DNA of 63,564 nt, counting the filler, from Collodictyon triciliatum (taxonomy: Eukaryota): the NCBI GenBank assembly GCA_043381765.1. It is 19 parts of 19 records of this genome, joined end to end, with 100 filler letters (N's around TTAATTAATTAA, not from the genome) between each part and the next. Parts side by side here need not be neighbours in the genome. Positions count along the whole stretch, not along the records: positions 51,014 to 54,304 come from JBHJMP010007512.1; 18 more parts are not named here. One strand, 5' to 3'. Shown here piece by piece: positions 1 through 60,559 of this stretch. Each line of letters opens with the position of its first letter. Position 1 is the stretch's first letter. Under the pieces are notes generated by a model. The model searched no databases, was not told the origin of the DNA, and saw nothing but the letters and a program-made list of their open reading frames with translations. A program made the position numbers and the translations under genes.

Positions 1-138
1 CTTTTTTCTTTTTTCTTTTTCTTTTTCTTTTTTCTTTTTCTTTTTTCTTTTTTCTGATTTCTTTTTTCTTTTTTCTTTTAAATATCTTTTTATTATTTTG
101 GTTCCTCGCACTGTTTTACTTCATTTTCGAAACAGGCC

Positions 139-3689: not shown

Positions 3690-4715
3690 TACCAGGCTCC
3701 TGAATGGCTTTTTTTGTTCAAAGTTTCTTTGGCTTTTTTTTTTTCGATTCTTATGTATTTGTGATCGATATAGATCGTTTCTTGGCTTCATCGAGTCCGA
3801 CGCGCCACACGAGCTGATCTTCCTGTTTGTTCGCATCGCAGAGAACAGCTTGAAACGGTTGTAGGCGACAAGTCTCCTGTATTTATTATGCTAGAAAATA
3901 ATTACCGTATATTAGTTACCGGGGTTGTTGAGATTTCGTATCCAAATATATCCATTTTACGATGAACAAAGAGTGTGTTGGTCTCCAAAAGNNNNNNNNN
4001 NNNNNNNNNNNNNNNNNNNNNNNNNNNNNNNNNNNNNNNNNNNNNNNNNNNNNNNNNNNNNNNNNNNNNNNNNNNNNNNNNNNNNNNNNNNNNNNNNNNN
4101 NNNNNNNNNNNNNNNNNNNNNNNNNNNNNNNNNNNNNNNNNNNNNNNNNNNNNNNNNNNNNNNNNNNNNNNNNNNNNNNNNNNNNNNNNNNNNNNNNNNN
4201 NNNNNNNNNNNNNNNNNNNNNNNNNNNNNNNNNNNNNNNNNNNNNNNNNNNNNNNNNNNNNNNNNNNNNNNNNNNNNNNNNNNNNNNNNNNNNNNNNNNN
4301 NNNNNNNNNNNNNNNNNNNNNNNNNNNNNNNNNNNNNNNNNNNNNNNNNNNNNNNNNNNNNNNNNNNNNNNNNNNNNNNNNNNNNNNNNNNNNNNNNNNN
4401 NNNNNNNNNNNNNNNNNNNNNNNNNNNNNNNNNNNNNNNNNNNNNNNNNNNNNNNNNNNNNNNNNNNNNNNNNNNNNNNNNNNNNNNNNNNNNNNNNNNN
4501 NNNNNNNNNNNNNNNNNNNNNNNNNNNNNNNNNNNNNNNNNNNNNNNNNNNNNNNNNNNNNNNNNNNNNNNNNNNNNNNNNNNNNNNNNNNNNNNNNNNN
4601 NNNNNNNNNNNNNNNNNNNNNNNNNNNNNNNNNNNNNNNNNNNNNNNNNNNNNNNNNNNNNNNNNNNNNNNNNNNNNNNNNNNNNNNNNNNNNNNNNNNN
4701 NNNNNNNNNNNNNNN

Positions 4716-51013: not shown

Positions 51014-54000
51014 TGGAGGGTGTTTTGTTCTATAATGCGTGCATTTCCAACTGTGTTTTTGATCATGCAAATATGAAAGGCGTCAGTTTTGGTCGCTTGC
51101 CTTTGTTTTTGGGTCATACAAGTTCTGTCAAGAGTGTTTGCAGCATTCACGGACCGAATGGTGAAAAATGGCTGGCTTCTGGAAGTGGTGATAATACAAT
51201 ACGTATTTGGGATGTATCCACAGGAAGCCAAATCAAAACATTAGAAGGTCATACAAGCTATGTCACCAGTGTTTGCAGTATTGAAGGACCGAATGGTAAA
51301 AACTGGCTGGCTTCTGGAAGTTATGATAAGACAATACGTATTTGGGATGTAGCCACAGGAAACCAAGTCAAAACATTAGGAGGACATACAGAACCAGTCT
51401 TCAGTGTTTGCAGCATTCAAGGACCGAATGGTGAAAATTGGCTGGCTTCTGGAAGTTATGATAACACCATTCGCATTTGGGATGTAGCCACAGGAAATCA
51501 AATCAAAACATTAGAAGGTCATACAGATTATGTCACTAGTGTTTGCTGTATTCAAGGACCGAGTGGTGAAAAGTGGTTGGCTTCTGGAAGTCATGATAAA
51601 ACAATACGTATTTGGGATGTAGCCACTGGAAACCAGATCAGAATACTAGGAAATCATTCAGAAGCCATTATGAGTGTTTGCAGTATTCAAGGACCGAATG
51701 GTGAAAAGTGGCTGGCTTCTGGAAGTATGGATAATACAATACGTATTTGGGATGTAGCCACAGGAAACCATATCAAAACATTAGAAGGTCATACAAGTTC
51801 TGTCAATAGTGTTTGCAGTATTCAAGGACCGAATGGCGAAAAGTGGCTGGCTTCTGGAAGTCGTGATAATACAATACGTATCTGGGATGTAGCCACAGGA
51901 AACCAAATCAAAACATTTGAAGGGCATACAGATGATGATGTCAATAGTGTTTGCAGTATTCAAGGACCGAATGGTGAACACTGGCTGGCTTCTGGAAGTT
52001 ATGATAAAACGATACGCATTTGGGATATAGCCACTGGAAACCAGATCAAAATATTAGAAGGGCACACAGGTGAAGTTTATAGTGTTTGCGGCATTCAAGG
52101 ACCGAATGGTGAAAAGTGGCTGGCTTCTGGAAGTTGGGATAATACAATACGTATTTGGGATGTAGCCACAGGAAACCATATCAAAACATTAGAAGGACAT
52201 ACAAATTGGGTCAACAGTGTTTGCAGTTTTCAAGGACCTAATGGTGAATTTTGGTTGGCTTCTGGAACTTGGGATAATACAATACGTATTTGGGATATAG
52301 CCACAGGAAGCCAAATCAAAACATTAGAAGGTCATTTAGAGAGTGTCTGGAGTGTTTGCAGTATTCAAGGACCGAATGGTGAAAAGTGGCTGGCTTCTGG
52401 AAGTATGGATAATACAATACGTATTTGGGATGTAGCCACAGGAAACCATATCAAAACATTAGAAGGTCATACAAGTGAAGTCAATAGTGTTTGCAGTATT
52501 CAAGGACCGAATGGTGAAAATTGGCTGGCTTCTGGAAGCGATGATAATACAATACGTATCTGGGATGTAGCCACAGGAAACCAAATCAAAACATTTGAAG
52601 GGCATACAGAGCCAGTCATGAGTGTTTGCAGTATTCAAGGACTTAATAGCGAAAAGTGGCTGGCTTCTGGAAGTCTTGATAATACAATACGTATTTGGGA
52701 TGTAGCCACAGGAAACCATATCAAAACATTGGAAGGTCATACAGATACTGTCATGAGTGTTTGCAATATTCAAGGACCGAATGGTGAAAAGTGGTTGGCT
52801 TCTGGAAGTCGTGATAATACAATACGCATTTGGGATGTAGCCACAGGAAAACAAATAAAAACATTAGAAGGTCATTCAGAGCCAGTCTATAGTGTTTGCA
52901 GTATTAAAGGACCGAATGGTGAAAAGTGGCTGGCTTCTGGAAGTGGTGATAAAACAATACGTATTTGGGACGTAGCCACAGGAAACCAAATACACAGCCT
53001 GAAAAAATCAGAAGCGACGTACAATGAGAAGAGCCAATTGGTCATGAAGGATAAACCCGATGAAGTCATCGCAGTATGCAATAGTACAAGTGATGCGATG
53101 AATATGATTGATACAAGCAGAATAATGAACGTAAGAACTGTTCGAATTATAGTCCCAAGAACACTGGAAGCAGCGAAAACTCGCATTAACAAAGCTGAAA
53201 TAGATACAATGAACAAGAAACTATTCCTGCAAGAGGGTGCTGCTTCCTTTGATGCAGACTTTGTTGCCTATTGTGAGCAGGGAAAGTTCACCATGTTCCA
53301 GGCTCAAATGATGGCTGAATGCTATGAGAATGAATGGAGTGTTGAGAAGGACATCGAGAAAGCTATCGAGTGGCTTGGAAAAGCTGAAAACTTTGACAAA
53401 CTGAAGCAACTCGCACAACAAGGCTCAGAAGAGGCATTCAGTGTTTTGAAAAAAATGGCTGAAATGAAGGAATATGGAAGAGACAGATACAAATATCCAC
53501 AGGCTGTTTCTATTGTTGCTGAATGCTATGAGAATGGATGGGGCGTTGAGAAGGACATCGAGAAAGCTATCGAGTGGCTTGGAAAAGCTAAAAATTTTGA
53601 TAAATTGAGGCAATTCGCACAGCAAGGCTCAAAGGAGGCATTCAATGTTTTGAAAGAAATGGCTGAAATGAAATATAAATATAGGAGATACATATATCCA
53701 CAGGCTGTTTCTATTGTTGCTGAATGCTATGAGAATGGATGGGGTGTTGAGAAGGACATCACATTATCCTTCAAATGGGAAATATTTGGTGGAAAGACTG
53801 AGAACTTCGACAAACTGAAGGAACTCGCACAACAAGGCTCAAAGGAGGCATTCAGCGTTTTGAAAGAAATGGCTGAAATCGTAGACGAGGATTATGGTGA
53901 ATACAAATATCCAGAGGCTGTTTCTATTGTTGCTGAATGCTACGAGAATGGATGGGGCGTTGAGAAGGACACCGAGAGAGCTATCGAATGGCTTGGAAAA

Positions 54001-54304
54001 GCTGAAAACTTCGACAAACTGAAGGAATTCGCACAACAAGGCTCAAAAGAGGCATTCAATGTTTTGAAAGAAATGGCTGAAATCGTAGACGAGGATTATG
54101 TAAGATACATATATCCACAGGCTGTTTCTATTGTTGCTGAATGCTACGAGAATGGATGGGGCGTTGAGAAGGACACCGAGAAAGCAGCCGAGTGGTTTGG
54201 AAATGCTGAAAACTTTGAAAAACTGAAGCAACTTGCACAGCAAGGCTCAAAGGAGGCATTCAATGTTTTGAAAGAAATGGCTGAAATGAAGGAGGATATT
54301 CTGG
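51014..54304 (+). CDS. Intronless repeat protein, open at both ends: pentapeptide-like segment, 14 WD40 repeats, linker, about five 68-aa Sel1-like repeats
   Basis: One open frame spans the whole contig. The 45-aa unit is GH..V.SVCSIQGPNGEKWLASGS.DNTIRIWDVATG; the second unit is AECYENGWGVEKD.EKAIEW. Confidence 0.92.
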
Positions 54305-54589
54305 NNNNNNNNNNNNNNNNNNNNNNNNNNNNNNNNNNNNNNNNNNNNTTAATTAATTAANNNNNNNNNNNNNNNNNNNNNNNNNNNNNNNNNNNNNNNN
54401 NNNNTTGTCTTTGTCTTTGTCTTTGTCTTTGTCTTTGTCTTTGTCTTTGTCTTTGTCTTTGTCTTTGTCTTTGTCTTTGTCTTTGTCTTTGTCTTTGTCT
54501 TTATCTTTATCTTTATCCTTGTCTTTGTCTTTGTCTTTGTCCTTATCCCTTTGTTGATTTCTCAGCACATCGGTCTAAAATGTGTGTTT

Positions 54590-56884: not shown

Positions 56885-57505
56885 GGATAGTCATAAAAAA
56901 AAATAAGAGTACGGTTGTAAATTTCCAGGATTCGGCAGATATTTTTTAGGAGTTGTTTGCAGAGGTAATTCAAATTCTGTGTTGTAATTACATCCAATCA
57001 CATAAGACCCACCGAAACCAAATTCGCCCTGGTACTGTGAAAATTCTTCATTAGATGTTATATAAACTCTTATTGCCGGTGTCGCAACTGTTTTTCTTTC
57101 AAAATAAAACCGATTGCGAATATTGTCATATCCCATATCATACTGGTCTTGTCCATTGCTTGCTAATAAAGTATTTAATGCAAGGACAACCGCTTGGGCA
57201 TATTGACTTGTGTTATATGTACCCTCAGCAATTGTAATTGTTGAAAAAGTACTGATACTTGTGTTGGTATTCAATACTCGAATTCGCAATTGATTGTATT
57301 GATACAACTCTGTTATCTGATGTATCGTCGTGGGGTAGTATACACTTTTTATAAACAGATTATATGCCTTGTTTTTGATAACTGGGAAATCTGATAAATC
57401 AAAAGTGAAATTGTTGTTTGTCCCACTCACTCGTTTCGATTCCGAATTAATAAAAAGATAATTGGCTTCGTTTACACGTTTTTCATCTAAAAGTCGTCGT
57501 TGCAT
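56885..57505 (-). CDS. Putative minor capsid protein (penton, single jelly roll); runs to the contig edge
   Basis: YLFINSESKRVSGTNNNFTFDL, LFIKSVYYPTTIHQI and TITIAEGTYNTSQYAQAV follow the I.S..R..GT..NF.F / ITI.EG.Y pattern of PLV and virophage pentons. Confidence 0.7.
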
Positions 57506-57538
57506 ACAAGTGTCAATATTTTTTTCTTTATTAAATTA

Positions 57539-57918
57539 ATGGACCAGGAACCTCAAGTTGAATATGTTGAAGATGCACTTATAAAAGCAGTTCCCGAAAA
57601 AAAAAGAACTTTGACTGCCAAGCAGCTCAAAAATTTGGAATTGATGCGGCAGAAAAAAATGGCAAAGAAGGAAGCAGCAAAAATGATTTCTGATTCCGTA
57701 AGAAATTCGGCGAGGGAGGCAGATGCCGAGGAATTCTCTAGTTTAAAAAATGAATTAGCGGAGATTAAAAAAAAAACTGGCCGCCCCGGAAATTGCCGCA
57801 TCCAAATCAAAAAAAAGCCCCAATCAAAAGAAAAAGAATTATAGTTGAAGAATCAGATTCAGATCGAGATTTGGAATATTCCAACCCTTACCTTATGCAA
57901 ATAGTTCGACCGAGGTAA
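57539..57918 (+). CDS. Small charged viral protein, apparently frameshifted at two A-runs
   Basis: MDQEPQVEYVED..KKRTLTAKQLKNLELMRQKK; removing one A from each run (57767-57776 and 57809-57816) joins it to KRKRIIVEESDSD..RPR*. Confidence 0.55.
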
Positions 57919-57945
57919 ATTATTTTTTGTAAAGTAAAAAATAAT

Positions 57946-59688
57946 TTAATAAAGGACCTGGGCATTGTCCTTTCCAATATCCAGGACACGAGTGTGCTCG
58001 ATGATTACCCAGCAGGTGTAGTTATCGATGGGAGTCACTGATGAAACAGCTGCAGATGCAGCAGCAGCAGCATTGGCAGCGGTAACAGATTTTCCCTCTT
58101 TACAAGAAGCTCCGAATTGAAGGCCGACTTGAACGATTCCAGAATTTGAAGATGCGTTGTAACCAGATAGCTCAAACTCATCCGAGTAATCTGACCGAGT
58201 CATAGTCCAACCCAGTGCGAAATATGTAGGAGTTTTCCAGTAAATTTCTTCACAAGATAATGGATTATTATTCTTGTTTGCAATGGTTCCATTTGCCATA
58301 GCAGCATTAACAAGCATATTATTATACACCGCTTTGTTGCTGGCATAAAACGCACCCGCACCTGTTTTTTGTGAAGAGTACACGCTATTTGTAATACTTG
58401 GACTTGATTCAACAACTGGGAAATTGACTTGTCCAAGCATTTCAGCAGATGTGTTATATCCCAGCGCTTTCATTAAATAATTAAGGGCTTCTGGATGTTG
58501 GCACAAAGCTTGTCCATGAAGCCCACTTGTTAAAAGACCATTTGAAGCAGAAATAGTTTGAGCTGCTGCTGGATATGTTAAATACCCTGGATTTTGTAAT
58601 TGAATAGGTACCGATGGCATAACTTTACCATTCACTACGAGTCTTGCTTGAGAGAGACCTTCAATAGCATGCAATCTATCCGTTCCAAGGTAGTTAACAG
58701 TATTTTGCTCAGAGTTTCGAGTAAATATACAATAAATTGCATTGATGTTGCTATACTGAACCGAAATATTCTGAGTAATCCAACCATTTTGTCCTCTGCT
58801 AATTGGAAATTGCGTCATAAAGTAAGTTTCAATTGGTATTTGCAAATTGTTGGAAACCAAATACTGAGAAAGCGCATTATTATAACTGGTTTCAGTTTGA
58901 ATATAATTGATATTCAGGTGGATGTTTGATAAAGTATAACTTAAATTATTATCATCCGAAGCAGTAAATGAATCATATGTATAATTTGCATTCTGCGCAC
59001 AAAATAATACACCGGTCGTAAAGCACTCAGAAGCTGGTGACATCCAAATACGAATTTCAAGACTGTTTGGGCCTAAAAGATATGCTGGTAAAAGTGTTTT
59101 AATATTATTTAGACCTAAATATCTTAAGGGAAATCCAATCTGTATTATGTTACTGGATGTACCGGCCGCACCGATAAGCAATTGTTTGGATTTATCTAAA
59201 ATAGATTGATTTAAACCCATTCCACCACTCATAAGATTTACCCAATTCTGATTATTGCACCAATTGTGCTTGAAAGTTTCCAAATACGAATAGTTGTCTA
59301 TGCGTTCCAATTCTGACCCATTGAGGTATACAGCGATGCGATAAATAAAATATTCGGAACTTTCACAAGGAGCAAGTATTGGTATAGTTCTCGAAGCATC
59401 ATCACCAGCAGTTGAAAAATTGGTGTTTTTTAAATTTCCAATAGCTGCTATAACATTTGCTTCAATTCCCTTGACCTGTAAATCCGCTATTATATGAGCA
59501 CTATCCATTTGAATGCTCCATTCATTGTCAATGGGAACCCTAAAAACAATTTGAGGGCCAGATGAAAAAGTAGCAGTCTGCTCCGTTCCGTTGCTGGGCA
59601 AAACTTGTCTTTGTTGTTTTTCAAGGATAGTTTTCTTCTTGGATGAAATATTTCTGAACTGCAGTTCTTCGGGTAGTGAGTCCATCAT
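57946..59688 (-). CDS. Putative major capsid protein (double jelly roll), PLV type, 580 aa
   Basis: VLPSNG..F..GPQIVFRVP, LNGSELERIDNY, FPLRYLGL..LLP..LEIRIWM, YTLSNIHLNINYI, IPIETY, SNINAIYCIF and VNGKVMP. Beta-rich, intact ORF. Confidence 0.78.
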   Translation of the reverse strand: MMDSLPEELQFRNISSKKKTILEKQQRQVLPSNGTEQTATFSSGPQIVFRVPIDNEWSIQMDSAHIIADLQVKGIEANVIAAIGNLKNTNFSTAGDDASRTIPILAPCESSEYFIYRIAVYLNGSELERIDNYSYLETFKHNWCNNQNWVNLMSGGMGLNQSILDKSKQLLIGAAGTSSNIIQIGFPLRYLGLNNIKTLLPAYLLGPNSLEIRIWMSPASECFTTGVLFCAQNANYTYDSFTASDDNNLSYTLSNIHLNINYIQTETSYNNALSQYLVSNNLQIPIETYFMTQFPISRGQNGWITQNISVQYSNINAIYCIFTRNSEQNTVNYLGTDRLHAIEGLSQARLVVNGKVMPSVPIQLQNPGYLTYPAAAQTISASNGLLTSGLHGQALCQHPEALNYLMKALGYNTSAEMLGQVNFPVVESSPSITNSVYSSQKTGAGAFYASNKAVYNNMLVNAAMANGTIANKNNNPLSCEEIYWKTPTYFALGWTMTRSDYSDEFELSGYNASSNSGIVQVGLQFGASCKEGKSVTAANAAAAASAAVSSVTPIDNYTCWVIIEHTRVLDIGKDNAQVLY

Positions 59689-59714
59689 ATTTTTAAAAAG
59701 AAAATAATTTTCGC

Positions 59715-60126
59715 TTAGTAACCTATTTTATTTCGGATGTTGTCGTCGTATGATTTTATGACTTTTCCCAGGGATTCGTTTCGTTGTCCAGCTCCACGAA
59801 TTACAGGCTCATATTTTTTTAATTGCTTCGTGCCCTGTTCAAATGGCTTCTGCAATTTACTCCCTTCTACAAGACCTGCAACAGTAGCACCCTTTTTACC
59901 TTCAGCTAAGTCAAGTCCCTTTTTCACGTGCCCTTTGTTTGCATTGTACACCTTTTAGTGCCTGCTCCGACAGTCCACCAGTGGCTGTTCGTGCCAAGTC
60001 CCGCAGTCCTCCACCGGTGGCTTTATCAACGGCATTGACTACTTTTTCTCCGACATTCATTCCCTTCCGTACGACTTTAACTGCTCCTTTGAAAAATTTC
60101 TTCAAGCTTCTCCGTGTGAATACCAT
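59715..60126 (-). CDS. Small basic, Gly/Lys-rich protein of about 136 aa (candidate virion core or membrane-active protein), with one frameshift
   Basis: ORFs 59911-60126 and 59715-59951 fuse if one base is removed from the T4 run at 59953-59956 (..EQALKVYNANKGH..). Confidence 0.6.
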
Positions 60127-60559
60127 ATAGTTACTTATAAAAAAATCTATTATGTGAGTTCCTCCTCAAAATTTNNNNNNNNNNNNNNNNNNNNNNNNNN
60201 NNNNNNNNNNNNNNNNNNTTAATTAATTAANNNNNNNNNNNNNNNNNNNNNNNNNNNNNNNNNNNNNNNNNNNNTTGGTTTTTTTTTTGTTTATTTTGGT
60301 TTTCTATGGTTTTCTATTGTTTTATTTTGCTTTATTTTCTTTTATCTTGTTTTTGGTTTTTTTTGTTTATTTTGGTTTTCTATGGTTTTCTATTGTTTTA
60401 TTTTGTTTTATTTTGTTTTATTTTGTTTTATTTTGTTTTATATTGTTTTCTATTGTTTTCTATTGTTTTCTATTGTTTTCTATTGTTTTATTTTGTTTTA
60501 TTTTGTTTTATTTTGTTTTATTTTGTTTTATTTTGTTTTATTTTGTTTTATTTTGTTTT

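What the first reader, a model, noticed from the sequence alone, without database searches (positions are those of the whole stretch)
51014..53005. HET-E-like WD40 array with hypervariable ligand-face residues: candidate protist NLR-type receptor
Seen: 14 repeats of 135 bp (enough for two 7-blade propellers), nearly identical at DNA level. Variation concentrates at positions 4-5 (SS,SY,EP,DY,EA,SS,DDD,GE,NW,ES,SE,EP,DT,EP), 7 (K,T,F,T,M,N,N,Y,N,W,N,M,M,Y) and 26 (G,Y,Y,H,M,R,Y,W,W,M,D,L,R,G). The gene is intronless and has a pentapeptide-like segment upstream. Known: fungal HNWD NLRs (HET-E/HET-D) combine concerted repeat evolution with diversification at equivalent propeller-face positions. 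Inferred: a repeat-shuffling non-self recognition system; any NACHT or effector domain would lie beyond the contig edge.
Basis: partly seen in the sequence, partly recalled or inferred. Interest (0 to 1): 0.72.

Follow-up and report, generated by a model that had tools for sequence, protein, structure and literature searches.

The report
Protist NLR-like WD40 sensor fragment
A short contig from a protist genome holds the middle and end of a large receptor-like gene whose fourteen near-copy WD40 units differ mainly at four binding-face positions, as in fungal self/non-self receptors.

Summary
Contig 51014-54304 is one reading frame open at both ends. It has 14 tandem WD40 units of 135 bp (one of 138) at 51112-53004. 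Mean identity is 85.5% in DNA and 79% in protein. Codons 4, 5, 7 and 26 hold 37% of all residue differences.

These codons are the known top-face hotspots and the most variable columns in seven other repetitive WD40 proteins. Their non-synonymous divergence exceeds backbone synonymous divergence in 90 of 91 unit pairs.

No NTPase lies on the contig. Seven collinear relatives, all Diphylleia rotans transcripts, share the WD40-to-linker junction. Three of them carry a NACHT-like NTPase before the pentapeptide repeats.

I read this as a fragment of a protist STAND/NLR-like protein with a diversifying sensor. Receptor function, repeat shuffling and an upstream NTPase in this copy are inferred. The window is a chain of unlinked contigs, so neighbouring sequence tells nothing.

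The parts
51014..54304 (.). One 3291-bp contig, bounded on both sides by N44-TTAATTAATTAA-N44 spacers; the neighbouring stretches of the window are other, unlinked contigs
   Evidence: 19 contigs of 2380-3307 bp, ordered by length with one exception. tblastn of the protein finds no match on the other 18.
51016..54303 (+). Single reading frame of 1096 codons without a stop, open at both contig ends (protein P0001)
   Evidence: searches list it as the longest ORF of the window
51016..51111 (+). Last turns of a pentapeptide-repeat region (32 aa), cut by the contig start
   Evidence: Pfam Pentapeptide E 0.024, below cut-off. Collinear with the end of Pfam-positive pentapeptide regions of P0200 and P0242.
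51112..52059 (+). WD40 units 1-7 (135 bp each; unit 7 is 138 bp), roughly the first seven-bladed propeller
   Evidence: Lowest model confidence is at the unit 6/7 junction (51916-51936).
52060..53004 (+). WD40 units 8-14, roughly the second seven-bladed propeller
   Evidence: Best Foldseek match is 2YMU, a solved 14-repeat highly repetitive propeller structure, over 623 columns, E 1.1e-43.
51121..51132 (+). Example from unit 1 of the variable block: codons 4, 5 and 7 around the constant V6. The same codons, plus codon 26, vary in every unit (unit start + 9..20 and + 75..77; shifted by 3 after the insertion in unit 7).
   Evidence: The model places codons 4-5 just before strand A, codon 7 in its second position, and codon 26 directly after strand B.
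53005..53196 (+). Linker (aa 664-727) with no confident fold; partly conserved in the Diphylleia relatives
   Evidence: pLDDT below 50 for residues 1-30 and 32-79 of the model that starts at aa 649; alignments
53197..54303 (+). Alpha-helical solenoid of Sel1-like repeats. From 53314 it has five units of about 204 bp (68, 67, 71, 68 aa and a cut unit of 56 aa), and it runs off the contig end.
   Evidence: TRF 53314-54291, period 204, 4.8 copies, 84% matches. Pfam Sel1 E 4.7e-35, 5 stretches. Unit table. Model pLDDT mostly above 90, pTM 0.71.

Best explanation
The contig is an internal-to-C-terminal fragment of a large multidomain protein. I found this family only in transcripts of the protist Diphylleia rotans.

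Family layout: a variable N-terminal region and a NACHT-like STAND NTPase (with TPRs in some members), then a pentapeptide-repeat region, WD40 propellers, a linker and a Sel1-like helical array.

In this copy the 14 WD40 units, which form two seven-bladed propellers, were recently amplified or homogenised. The four positions on the top, ligand-binding face of each blade stayed or became highly diverse.

Inferred mechanism, by analogy with fungal NACHT-WD40 receptors and Apaf-1-type STAND proteins:
- The propeller top faces bind a ligand.
- Binding releases the NTPase for nucleotide-dependent oligomerisation.
- An N-terminal domain, unknown for this copy, then signals.
- New specificities arise by unit duplication and exchange plus selection at the four codons.

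Shown: the anatomy of the fragment, where the variation lies, the fold, and collinear homology to NTPase-bearing relatives.

Inferred: the NTPase in this copy, ligand sensing, unit exchange, and any immune or non-self role.
For: Array:
- 14 units, with all tetrad residues kept in 14 of 14.
- Internal protein identity is 0.79, above the 0.7 cut-off for 'Highly-Repetitive' WD40 proteins (passages of PMC5587647).
- The seven Diphylleia relatives have only 0.31-0.48 over the units my profile detected.

Variation:
- Four of 45 columns hold 319 of 866 pairwise residue differences.
- pN at these codons is 0.63, against pS 0.19 and pN 0.07 in the backbone. pN(variable) exceeds pS(backbone) in 90 of 91 pairs.
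- The columns are R1-2, R1 and D-1 plus one neighbour (passages of PMC3419727).
- They correspond in my register to HET-E codons 7, 9 and 25 (passages of PMC1805685).
- Columns 4, 5 and 26 are among the six most variable in 7 of 7 other repetitive WD40 proteins, and column 7 in 5 of 7.

Fold:
- AlphaFold model has pLDDT 88.5, with 56 strands in the A-B-C-D order.
- The best solved matches are tandem double propellers: 2YMU, Apaf-1, Gemin5.

Family:
- P0200 aligns collinearly from the pentapeptide end through 14 units to the first Sel1-like motif: 34% identity over 800 columns, 19 gaps.
- A linker-only search of 1.84 billion representatives listed eight hits reaching into the linker. Five are Diphylleia transcripts.
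- P0482 is a seventh family member.
- P0252 has CH, DUF4062, a NACHT-like NTPase and TPRs upstream. P0242 has a NACHT-like NTPase with a Walker A motif and pentapeptide repeats. P0482 has precomputed NACHT and Pentapeptide hits.
- P0242 aligns collinearly with a Mycoavidus protein named as NACHT domain-containing, across NTPase, pentapeptide and WD40 regions (E 5e-64).
Against: - No NTPase, start codon or stop codon is on the contig. No whole genome is held. The neighbouring stretches are unlinked contigs.
- The NACHT hits in P0252 and P0242 lie just under Pfam's cut-off: 25.4 and 24.6 bits against 26.7.
- Two relatives show no NTPase in what was scanned. P0312 has TPRs then WD40 in its 25 best listed families. 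P0319 starts inside the helical region. NTPase-less forms may therefore exist.
- Within the four variable codons pN/pS is only 1.1. The comparison with backbone pS uses non-independent pairs and ignores recombination, so positive selection is suggested, not demonstrated.
- Mean protein identity of 79% is under the 85% used for 'high internal conservation' in fungal NLRs (passages of PMC4986451).
- No read or contig spans the array in the four runs laid, so unit number and order rest on one short-contig assembly.
- No experiment ties any member of this family to immunity.
Confidence: 0.6

Rival explanations
1. A young repeat protein without receptor function. The units were duplicated recently, the core is held by folding constraints, and the four exposed positions drift because they are unconstrained. 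The protein would be a scaffold.
For: pN/pS within the four codons is about 1.1, which is what neutrality gives. Highly repetitive WD40 proteins with variable hotspot sites are described as a general class of unknown function in bacteria, fungi and protists (passages of PMC5587647).
Against: Divergence at the four codons (pN 0.63) is more than three times the synonymous divergence of the same units (0.19), in 90 of 91 pairs. Drift since the last duplication should not exceed the synonymous rate. Of the 56 residues at these positions, 7 are Y, 5 M and 4 W; 7 each are S and E. Bulky residues of this kind are typical of binding hotspots.
Confidence: 0.25
2. The gene has no NTPase. It would be a pentapeptide-WD40-Sel1 protein that starts not far upstream of the contig edge.
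For: The contig shows none. Family members P0312 and P0319 show no NTPase in the parts scanned.
Against: P0319 clearly starts inside a longer protein. It aligns with the middle of P0252 by eye; I ran no separate alignment. The top-25 Pfam list for P0312 was filled by propeller families, so an NTPase could have been hidden. Three full-length relatives have the NTPase directly before the pentapeptide region or before TPRs. So do the Mortierella and Mycoavidus proteins with the same pentapeptide-WD40 junction.
Confidence: 0.15
3. Assembly artefact: the array is a collapsed or chimeric join of units from several paralogues, so the number and order of units are not real.
For: The contig is 3.3 kb in a fragmented assembly. 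In the runs laid, the region exists only as pieces of about 60-290 bases. In X1, 179 of 318 pieces fit two places, and many pieces are 90-99% alike.
Against: The count of 14 equals two full propellers. It matches the collinear Diphylleia relative P0200 with only 19 gap columns over 800. The frame stays open across all junctions. Every unit is distinct: pairwise identity is at most 94%.
Confidence: 0.12
4. The contig comes from a bacterium living with the protist, not from the protist nucleus.
For: It is intronless and coding from end to end. Pentapeptide plus WD40 with NACHT is common in cyanobacteria, Sorangium and Burkholderia-related endosymbionts.
Against: The linker junction was found with WD40 only in Diphylleia transcripts. 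One of these, P0252, also carries a calponin-homology domain. No bacterial protein exceeded 52% identity. Coding GC (0.41) and GC3 (0.34) lie within the range of the other ORFs of the window: GC 0.32-0.52, GC3 0.27-0.53.
Confidence: 0.05

Closest known systems
Diphylleia rotans transcript family (EukProt EP00002; P0200, P0242, P0252, P0312, P0319, P0255, P0482), uncharacterised
   Same: Collinear pentapeptide end, 45-aa WD40 units with the longer A-B loop (motif of the type SVCS..GP.GE.WLASGS), the same linker, and a first Sel1-like motif of the type CYE.G.GVEKD. P0242 also has a spaced Sel1-like array at its end.
   Different: Only 31-45% identical to the query in the 'longer' search (P0252, P0312, P0482). 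Their WD40 units are old and diverged (internal identity 0.31-0.48 against 0.79 here). C-terminal ends differ: P0200 carries a precomputed MIB/HERC2 hit, PF06701, named from recall, and P0252 stops after one motif.
Fungal HNWD / NACHT-WD40 NLRs (HET-E, HET-D, HET-R of Podospora anserina)
   Same: Highly similar tandem WD40 units with diversity focused on top-face codons that flank conserved residues. HET-E codons 7, 9, 25 and 27 flank the conserved 8 and 26; here codons 5 and 7 flank V6 and codon 26 precedes D27. Ceratocystis proteins annotated as HET-E-1 show the same most-variable columns.
   Different: Units are 45 aa, not 42. The fourth HET-E site (column 28 here) is only N/K. Pentapeptide repeats lie before the array and a Sel1-like array after it. 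No HET domain was seen in any relative examined. Identity to fungal proteins is at most 52% and confined to the WD40 part. Repeat-number polymorphism and exchange between paralogues are not shown here.
NACHT-pentapeptide-WD40 proteins of Mortierella and of Burkholderia-related endosymbionts (Mycoavidus, Glomeribacter), and similar cyanobacterial and myxobacterial proteins
   Same: Same order of NTPase, pentapeptide repeats and WD40 units. P0242 aligns collinearly with the Mycoavidus protein P0031 (27% over 848 columns, E 5e-64). P0031 is also highly repetitive (0.83), with the same variable columns.
   Different: 42-aa units, and no linker or Sel1-like array after the propellers in the sequences read.
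Npun_R6612 of Nostoc punctiforme (PDB 2YMU), a solved highly repetitive 14-unit WD40 protein
   Same: Best structural match of the model: 623 columns, 34% identity, E 1.1e-43. It is cited as 14 repeats forming two WD40 domains (passages of PMC5587647).
   Different: Bacterial. TM-score is only about 0.4, plausibly because the relative position of the two propellers differs or is undetermined (model pTM 0.53).
NPHP3 / TEP1 / NWD-type NACHT proteins with TPR or WD40 repeats
   Same: Relative P0252 has DUF4062, an NTPase hitting NACHT, nSTAND1 and NPHP3_N, and TPRs. P0200 and P0319 hit TPR_NPHP3. A 2026 preprint describes a TIR-like effector domain directly before the NACHT in this group, with a few protist members (passages of 10.64898/2026.09.21.753143).
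   Different: All these hits are under or near Pfam cut-offs. That DUF4062 equals that TIR-like domain is not stated in the passages I read. Nothing of this region is on the contig.

Membership tests
WD40 beta-propeller | Repeats matching the WD40 profile | tested here: met
   Pfam WD40 E 1.6e-146, 14 stretches
WD40 beta-propeller | DH[S/T]W tetrad residues in the blades | tested here: met
   H2, S23, D27 and W33 are invariant in 14 of 14 units
WD40 beta-propeller | Four-stranded blades closing into seven-bladed propellers | tested here: met
   The model has 56 strands and pLDDT 88.5. The best solved matches are tandem double propellers.
Highly-Repetitive WD40 proteins (Hu et al. 2017) | Internal repeat identity of at least 0.7 | tested here: met
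   Mean 0.789, range 0.667-0.933; cut-off from passages of PMC5587647
Repeats of high internal conservation as defined for fungal NLRs (Dyrka et al. 2014) | Over 85% protein identity between repeats | tested here: not met
   Mean 79%; only the closest pairs reach 93%; threshold from passages of PMC4986451
STAND / NLR-type NTPase | NACHT or NB-ARC P-loop NTPase on the same polypeptide | not testable with these tools
   The contig ends in the pentapeptide region and no genome is held. In relatives: P0252 NACHT 25.4 bits and P0242 24.6 bits (cut-off 26.7), each with a Walker A motif. P0482 has a precomputed PF05729 hit.
STAND / NLR-type NTPase | Superstructure-forming repeats C-terminal of the NTPase | tested here: met
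   Pentapeptide stub, 14 WD40 units and a Sel1-like array on the contig
Fungal HNWD family (HET-E/HET-D) | N-terminal HET cell-death domain | not testable with these tools
   Off the contig. Not found in the N-terminal parts of P0200, P0242 or P0252.
Fungal HNWD family (HET-E/HET-D) | Diversity at the four codons flanking the conserved strand-A and Asp positions | tested here: met
   Columns 5, 7 and 26 are hypervariable, plus column 4. Column 28 is only N/K, so three of four sites match in my register.
Fungal HNWD family (HET-E/HET-D) | Positive selection at those codons | tested here: inconclusive
   pN(variable) 0.63 against pS(backbone) 0.19, higher in 90 of 91 pairs. Within-codon pN/pS is 1.1. 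No recombination-aware codon model was run.
Fungal HNWD family (HET-E/HET-D) | Repeat-number polymorphism and unit exchange between paralogues | tested here: inconclusive
   Single contigs in public runs join a pentapeptide-type end to units like 3, 5/6 and 13 (loose ends at 51382, 51780, 52728). This shows other copies exist but does not show exchange. Adjacent units are no more alike than distant ones (0.899 against 0.902).
Pentapeptide repeat proteins | Match to the Pentapeptide profile | tested here: inconclusive
   E 0.024, 14.6 bits against a cut-off of 20.2, for the 32-aa stub. Homologous positions in P0200 and P0242 pass (E 1.2e-11 and 9.7e-10).
Sel1-like repeat (SLR) proteins | Match to the Sel1 profile and a helical solenoid fold | tested here: met
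   Sel1 E 4.7e-35, 5 stretches. The model is all-helical from aa 728 on, with pLDDT mostly above 90.

The most novel reading that the evidence does not exclude
A deep-branching protist lineage (Diphyllatea, CRuMs) runs its own expandable intracellular receptor repertoire. It would be built on a NACHT-pentapeptide-WD40 core shared with bacteria and early fungi, and extended by a lineage-specific linker and Sel1-like array. In this copy both the propellers and the Sel1-like array are being homogenised. Specificity would be written into four top-face residues per blade, 56 in all. That would be repeat-based receptor diversification arising independently of fungi, perhaps aimed at the viruses or bacterial prey of a predatory flagellate.
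Probability: 0.25. Interest if true: 0.7.

Novelty: new variant of a known kind. Interest (0 to 1): 0.45.

Why it matters
Repeat arrays that stay alike while a few binding-face residues diversify are the hallmark of fungal NACHT-WD40 non-self receptors. They are also seen in bacterial repetitive WD40 proteins.

Finding the same pattern in a family known only from a diphyllatean protist, with NTPase-bearing relatives, would extend this mode of receptor diversification to a lineage near the base of Amorphea. It also adds an architecture (pentapeptide, two propellers, Sel1-like solenoid) that I did not find described. My searches returned listings with no title on such a protist family. I judged this from titles and abstract starts only, except for the two listed papers whose passages I read.

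It gives a concrete gene for testing whether single-celled predators use NLR-like sensors. As it stands, it is a fragment whose function is inferred.

Tried and rejected
- Whole-genome search for the 5' continuation: no genome is held for this window.
- Neighbouring sequence as context: rejected, because the window is a chain of unlinked contigs.
- Whole-protein homology searches were swamped by generic WD40 proteins of at most 52% identity. They gave no near-identical or full-length copy. Proteins shorter than 602 aa were never searched with the whole query.
- The family was found only with the C-terminal region and the linker alone.
- Of the eight linker hits, three (P0273, P0291, P0296) are short unnamed proteins. 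P0273 and P0296 are Sel1-type proteins without WD40. P0291 was not examined. I do not count these three as family members.
- Public runs: none of the six holders has even a fifth of the sampled words (shares 0.05-0.12), so I name no habitat or strain.
- In X1-X4 only short pieces lie on the stretch, and none spans the array or the contig ends usefully. One 290-base piece in X3 reaches 190 bases beyond the 5' end, but its letters are not given.
- X3 is an RNA library and X1/X2 are only guessed to be RNA, so transcription is not shown.
- The 'other letters' mostly reflect units laid on each other at the 90% threshold. I did not read them as alleles.
- A weak Pfam 'Multi_ubiq' hit in the Sel1-like part has no stretch passing on its own. 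I disregarded it.
- My first script for unit identities failed on a parsing error of mine. It was corrected.
Full report
**What the window is.** The 63,564-base window is not one molecule. It is a chain of 19 contigs of 2,380-3,307 bases, ordered by length with one exception. The contigs are joined by spacers of 44 N, TTAATTAATTAA and 44 N. The finding lies on one contig, 51014-54304 (3,291 bases, GC 0.41). The sequence on either side belongs to other, unlinked contigs and gives no context. A tblastn of the encoded protein against the window finds nothing on the other 18 contigs. No whole genome is held for this window.

**Checking the observation.**
- Tandem Repeats Finder reports 51112-52991, period 135, 13.9 copies, 85% matches, score 2578.
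- From 51016 the frame is open for all 1,096 codons of the contig.
- It splits into 14 units at 51112-53004: 13 of 45 residues, and unit 7 with 46.
- These four columns have 2.07-2.90 bits of entropy; the next column has 1.43.
- They hold 319 of the 866 pairwise residue differences (37%) in 4 of 45 columns.
- Pairwise nucleotide identity is 77-94% (mean 85.5%), or 90% without the four codons. Protein identity averages 79%. 'Nearly identical' is therefore too strong, but the array is clearly highly repetitive.
- Adjacent units are no more alike than distant ones.

**What the units are.** Pfam WD40 matches 14 times (E 1.6e-146). H2, S23, D27 and W33, the stabilising tetrad, are invariant in all 14 units. 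An AlphaFold model of aa 27-668, built on a 16-row alignment, has mean pLDDT 88.5 and pTM 0.53. It has 56 strands in regular A-B-C-D order, and its weakest stretch is at the unit 6/7 junction. Its best solved match is 2YMU, titled as a highly repetitive propeller structure, over 623 columns (E 1.1e-43). Other tandem double propellers follow, such as Apaf-1 and Gemin5. Two seven-bladed propellers is therefore the likely fold. Their relative position is undetermined.

**Where the variable residues sit.**
- In the model, codons 4-5 lie just before strand A.
- Codon 7 is the second residue of strand A.
- Codon 26 directly follows strand B and precedes the invariant Asp.
- In the register of Wu et al. 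2012, columns 5, 7 and 26 are R1-2, R1 and D-1. These three residues are generally required for binding on the top face (passages of PMC3419727).
- In HET-E-type repeats, four codons (7, 9, 25, 27) flanking two conserved positions are under strong positive selection (passages of PMC1805685).
- By my register, columns 5, 7 and 26 here are three of these four. The fourth, column 28, is only N or K.
- I aligned the units of seven other repetitive WD40 proteins found with the query to a profile of the window's units. They were two endosymbiont and five fungal proteins, three of them annotated HET-E-1. Columns 4, 5 and 26 were among the six most variable in 7 of 7, column 7 in 5 of 7, and column 28 in 5 of 7.
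- I had no model coordinates. The 'top face' assignment rests on the strand positions and the established WD40 topology.

**Selection.** Within the four codons, pN is 0.63 and pS 0.57 (ratio 1.1). In the other 41 codons, pN is 0.072 and pS 0.194. Non-synonymous divergence at the four codons exceeds backbone synonymous divergence in 90 of 91 unit pairs. This includes pairs whose backbones are almost identical, such as units 2 and 10 (pS 0.00, pN at the variable codons 0.97). That is what diversifying selection on a homogenising array would give. However, the pairs are not independent, multiple hits blur the counts, and recombination is ignored. I call it suggestive.

**The rest of the contig.**
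- Upstream of unit 1 are 32 residues of pentapeptide-type sequence. Alone they score E 0.024, under Pfam's cut-off.
- They align with the last turns of Pfam-positive pentapeptide domains in relatives.
- From about aa 728 there is an all-helical solenoid modelled with pLDDT mostly above 90 and pTM 0.71.
- It matches Pfam Sel1 (E 4.7e-35, five stretches).
- From 53314 it is itself a tandem array of about 204 bases: 4.8 copies, 84% matches.
- It runs off the contig end, so the true C-terminus is unknown.

**Relatives.**
- Whole-protein searches returned thousands of WD40 proteins of at most 52% identity and no near copy.
- Searching with the C-terminal part, and then with the 137-residue linker alone against 1.84 billion representatives, picked out a specific family.
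- Eight of the 150 listed hits reach into the linker. Five are Diphylleia rotans transcripts in EukProt. The other three are short unnamed proteins; the two I scanned are Sel1-type without WD40.
- With P0200 and P0482, this gives seven Diphylleia transcripts that share the WD40-to-linker junction.
- P0200 aligns collinearly with the query from the pentapeptide end through all 14 units to the first Sel1-like motif: 34% identity, 19 gap columns in 800. This also argues that 14 is the true unit number.
- The Diphylleia units carry the same 45-residue format but are old and diverged (internal identity 0.31-0.48 against 0.79 here). My profile detected only 4-17 units per protein.

**Is there an NTPase?** Not on this contig.
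- P0252 (2,619 aa) has a calponin-homology domain, DUF4062, an NTPase hitting NACHT, nSTAND1 and NPHP3_N, then TPRs, pentapeptide repeats, WD40 units and the linker.
- P0242 (2,169 aa) has a NACHT-like NTPase with a Walker A motif, then pentapeptide repeats, WD40 units, the linker and a spaced Sel1-like array.
- Both NACHT scores are just under Pfam's cut-off: 25.4 and 24.6 bits against 26.7.
- P0482 carries precomputed NACHT and Pentapeptide hits.
- P0242 aligns collinearly with a Mycoavidus protein named as NACHT domain-containing, across NTPase, pentapeptide repeats and WD40 (E 5e-64). Mortierella and Glomeribacter proteins have the same order.
- P0312 and P0319 showed no NTPase in what I scanned. 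P0319 is clearly a partial transcript.
- I put the chance that this copy has an upstream STAND NTPase at about 0.7.

**Organism.** Other contigs of the window encode COX5B and a PHO4-type transporter, so the assembly is eukaryotic. The family-specific relatives are all from Diphylleia rotans. A diphyllatean or a relative is therefore the best guess, though the 31-45% identity to those transcripts leaves this open. Coding GC and GC3 of the gene fall within the range of the other ORFs. I found no support for a bacterial origin.

**Public reads.** No run holds more than 12% of the sampled words. In the four runs laid, the stretch is covered only by short pieces, the listed ones 61-290 bases. In X1, 85 of 318 pieces are at 99% or more, 129 at 95-99% and 104 at 90-95%, and 179 fit two places. 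Many related units therefore exist in those samples. Single contigs join a pentapeptide-type end to units resembling units 3, 5/6 and 13 (loose ends at 51382, 51780, 52728). These point to other copies with a different first unit. This is compatible with a paralogue family and with unit exchange, but shows neither. Pieces occur in an RNA library (X3), which does not prove transcription.

**Comparison with what is known.**
- The array meets the definition of Highly-Repetitive WD40 proteins, a class noted in bacteria, fungi and protists with variable hotspot sites (passages of PMC5587647).
- It falls short of the 85% threshold used for fungal NLR repeats (passages of PMC4986451).
- It works like the fungal HNWD repeats in the pattern of variation, but it is not a member of that family. 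Unit length differs, flanking repeats differ, no HET domain is seen in relatives, and sequence identity is low.
- The nearest defined architecture is NACHT-pentapeptide-WD40, as in Mortierella and its endobacteria. The linker and Sel1-like array are additions specific to this family.
- Literature searches for this domain combination and for NLRs of unicellular eukaryotes returned no title describing such a protist family. I judged this from titles and abstract starts; I read passages of only two of the listed papers.

**Verdict.** This is most likely a fragment of a protist STAND/NLR-like protein with a recently homogenised, top-face-diversified double propeller, followed by a Sel1-like solenoid. 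It is a new variant of a known kind and of moderate interest. The fragmentary contig and the lack of any functional evidence limit it.

Noticed in passing
window 1-63564: The window is a pseudo-molecule: 19 contigs of 2,380-3,307 bases, ordered by length with one exception, joined by N44-TTAATTAATTAA-N44 spacers. Two contigs also have longer internal N runs (3992-4715 and 11763-12157). Any inference from neighbouring genes across spacers would be wrong.
   Followed up: yes
window 56885-60174 (ORFs 57946-59688 and 56891-57505, both on the minus strand): The 580-aa ORF has no Pfam hit and no meaningful PDB sequence match (best E 0.24). The protein-atlas feature search puts it at 0.97 next to viral clusters, some of whose members carry Capsid_N, Sputnik_MCP or DJR-like families. 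It may be a double-jelly-roll major capsid protein of a virophage or polinton-like element, with the 204-aa ORF beside it as a possible minor capsid protein.
   Followed up: partly
window 53758-53799: In the third Sel1-like unit, a 14-residue patch replaces the 12 residues conserved in the other four units. It adds 9 bases and keeps the frame. It may be a local replacement, a sequencing problem or a real variant.
   Followed up: no
window 53314-54303: The Sel1-like array is itself a tandem repeat of about 204 bases with 84% matches. Two different repeat arrays of the same gene are therefore being kept alike.
   Followed up: partly
window 47400-47522 and 54405-54541: There are simple-sequence runs at contig ends: a TC-rich run at 47400-47522, and 22.8 copies of TTGTCT at 54405-54541. 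These probably explain why the assembly broke there.
   Followed up: no
proteins P0242, P0031, P0106: The segment between the NTPase and the pentapeptide repeats is strikingly alike in a Diphylleia transcript, a Mortierella protein and a Mycoavidus protein. This hints at gene transfer of the NACHT-pentapeptide-WD40 core between bacteria and distant eukaryotes. No tree was built.
   Followed up: partly
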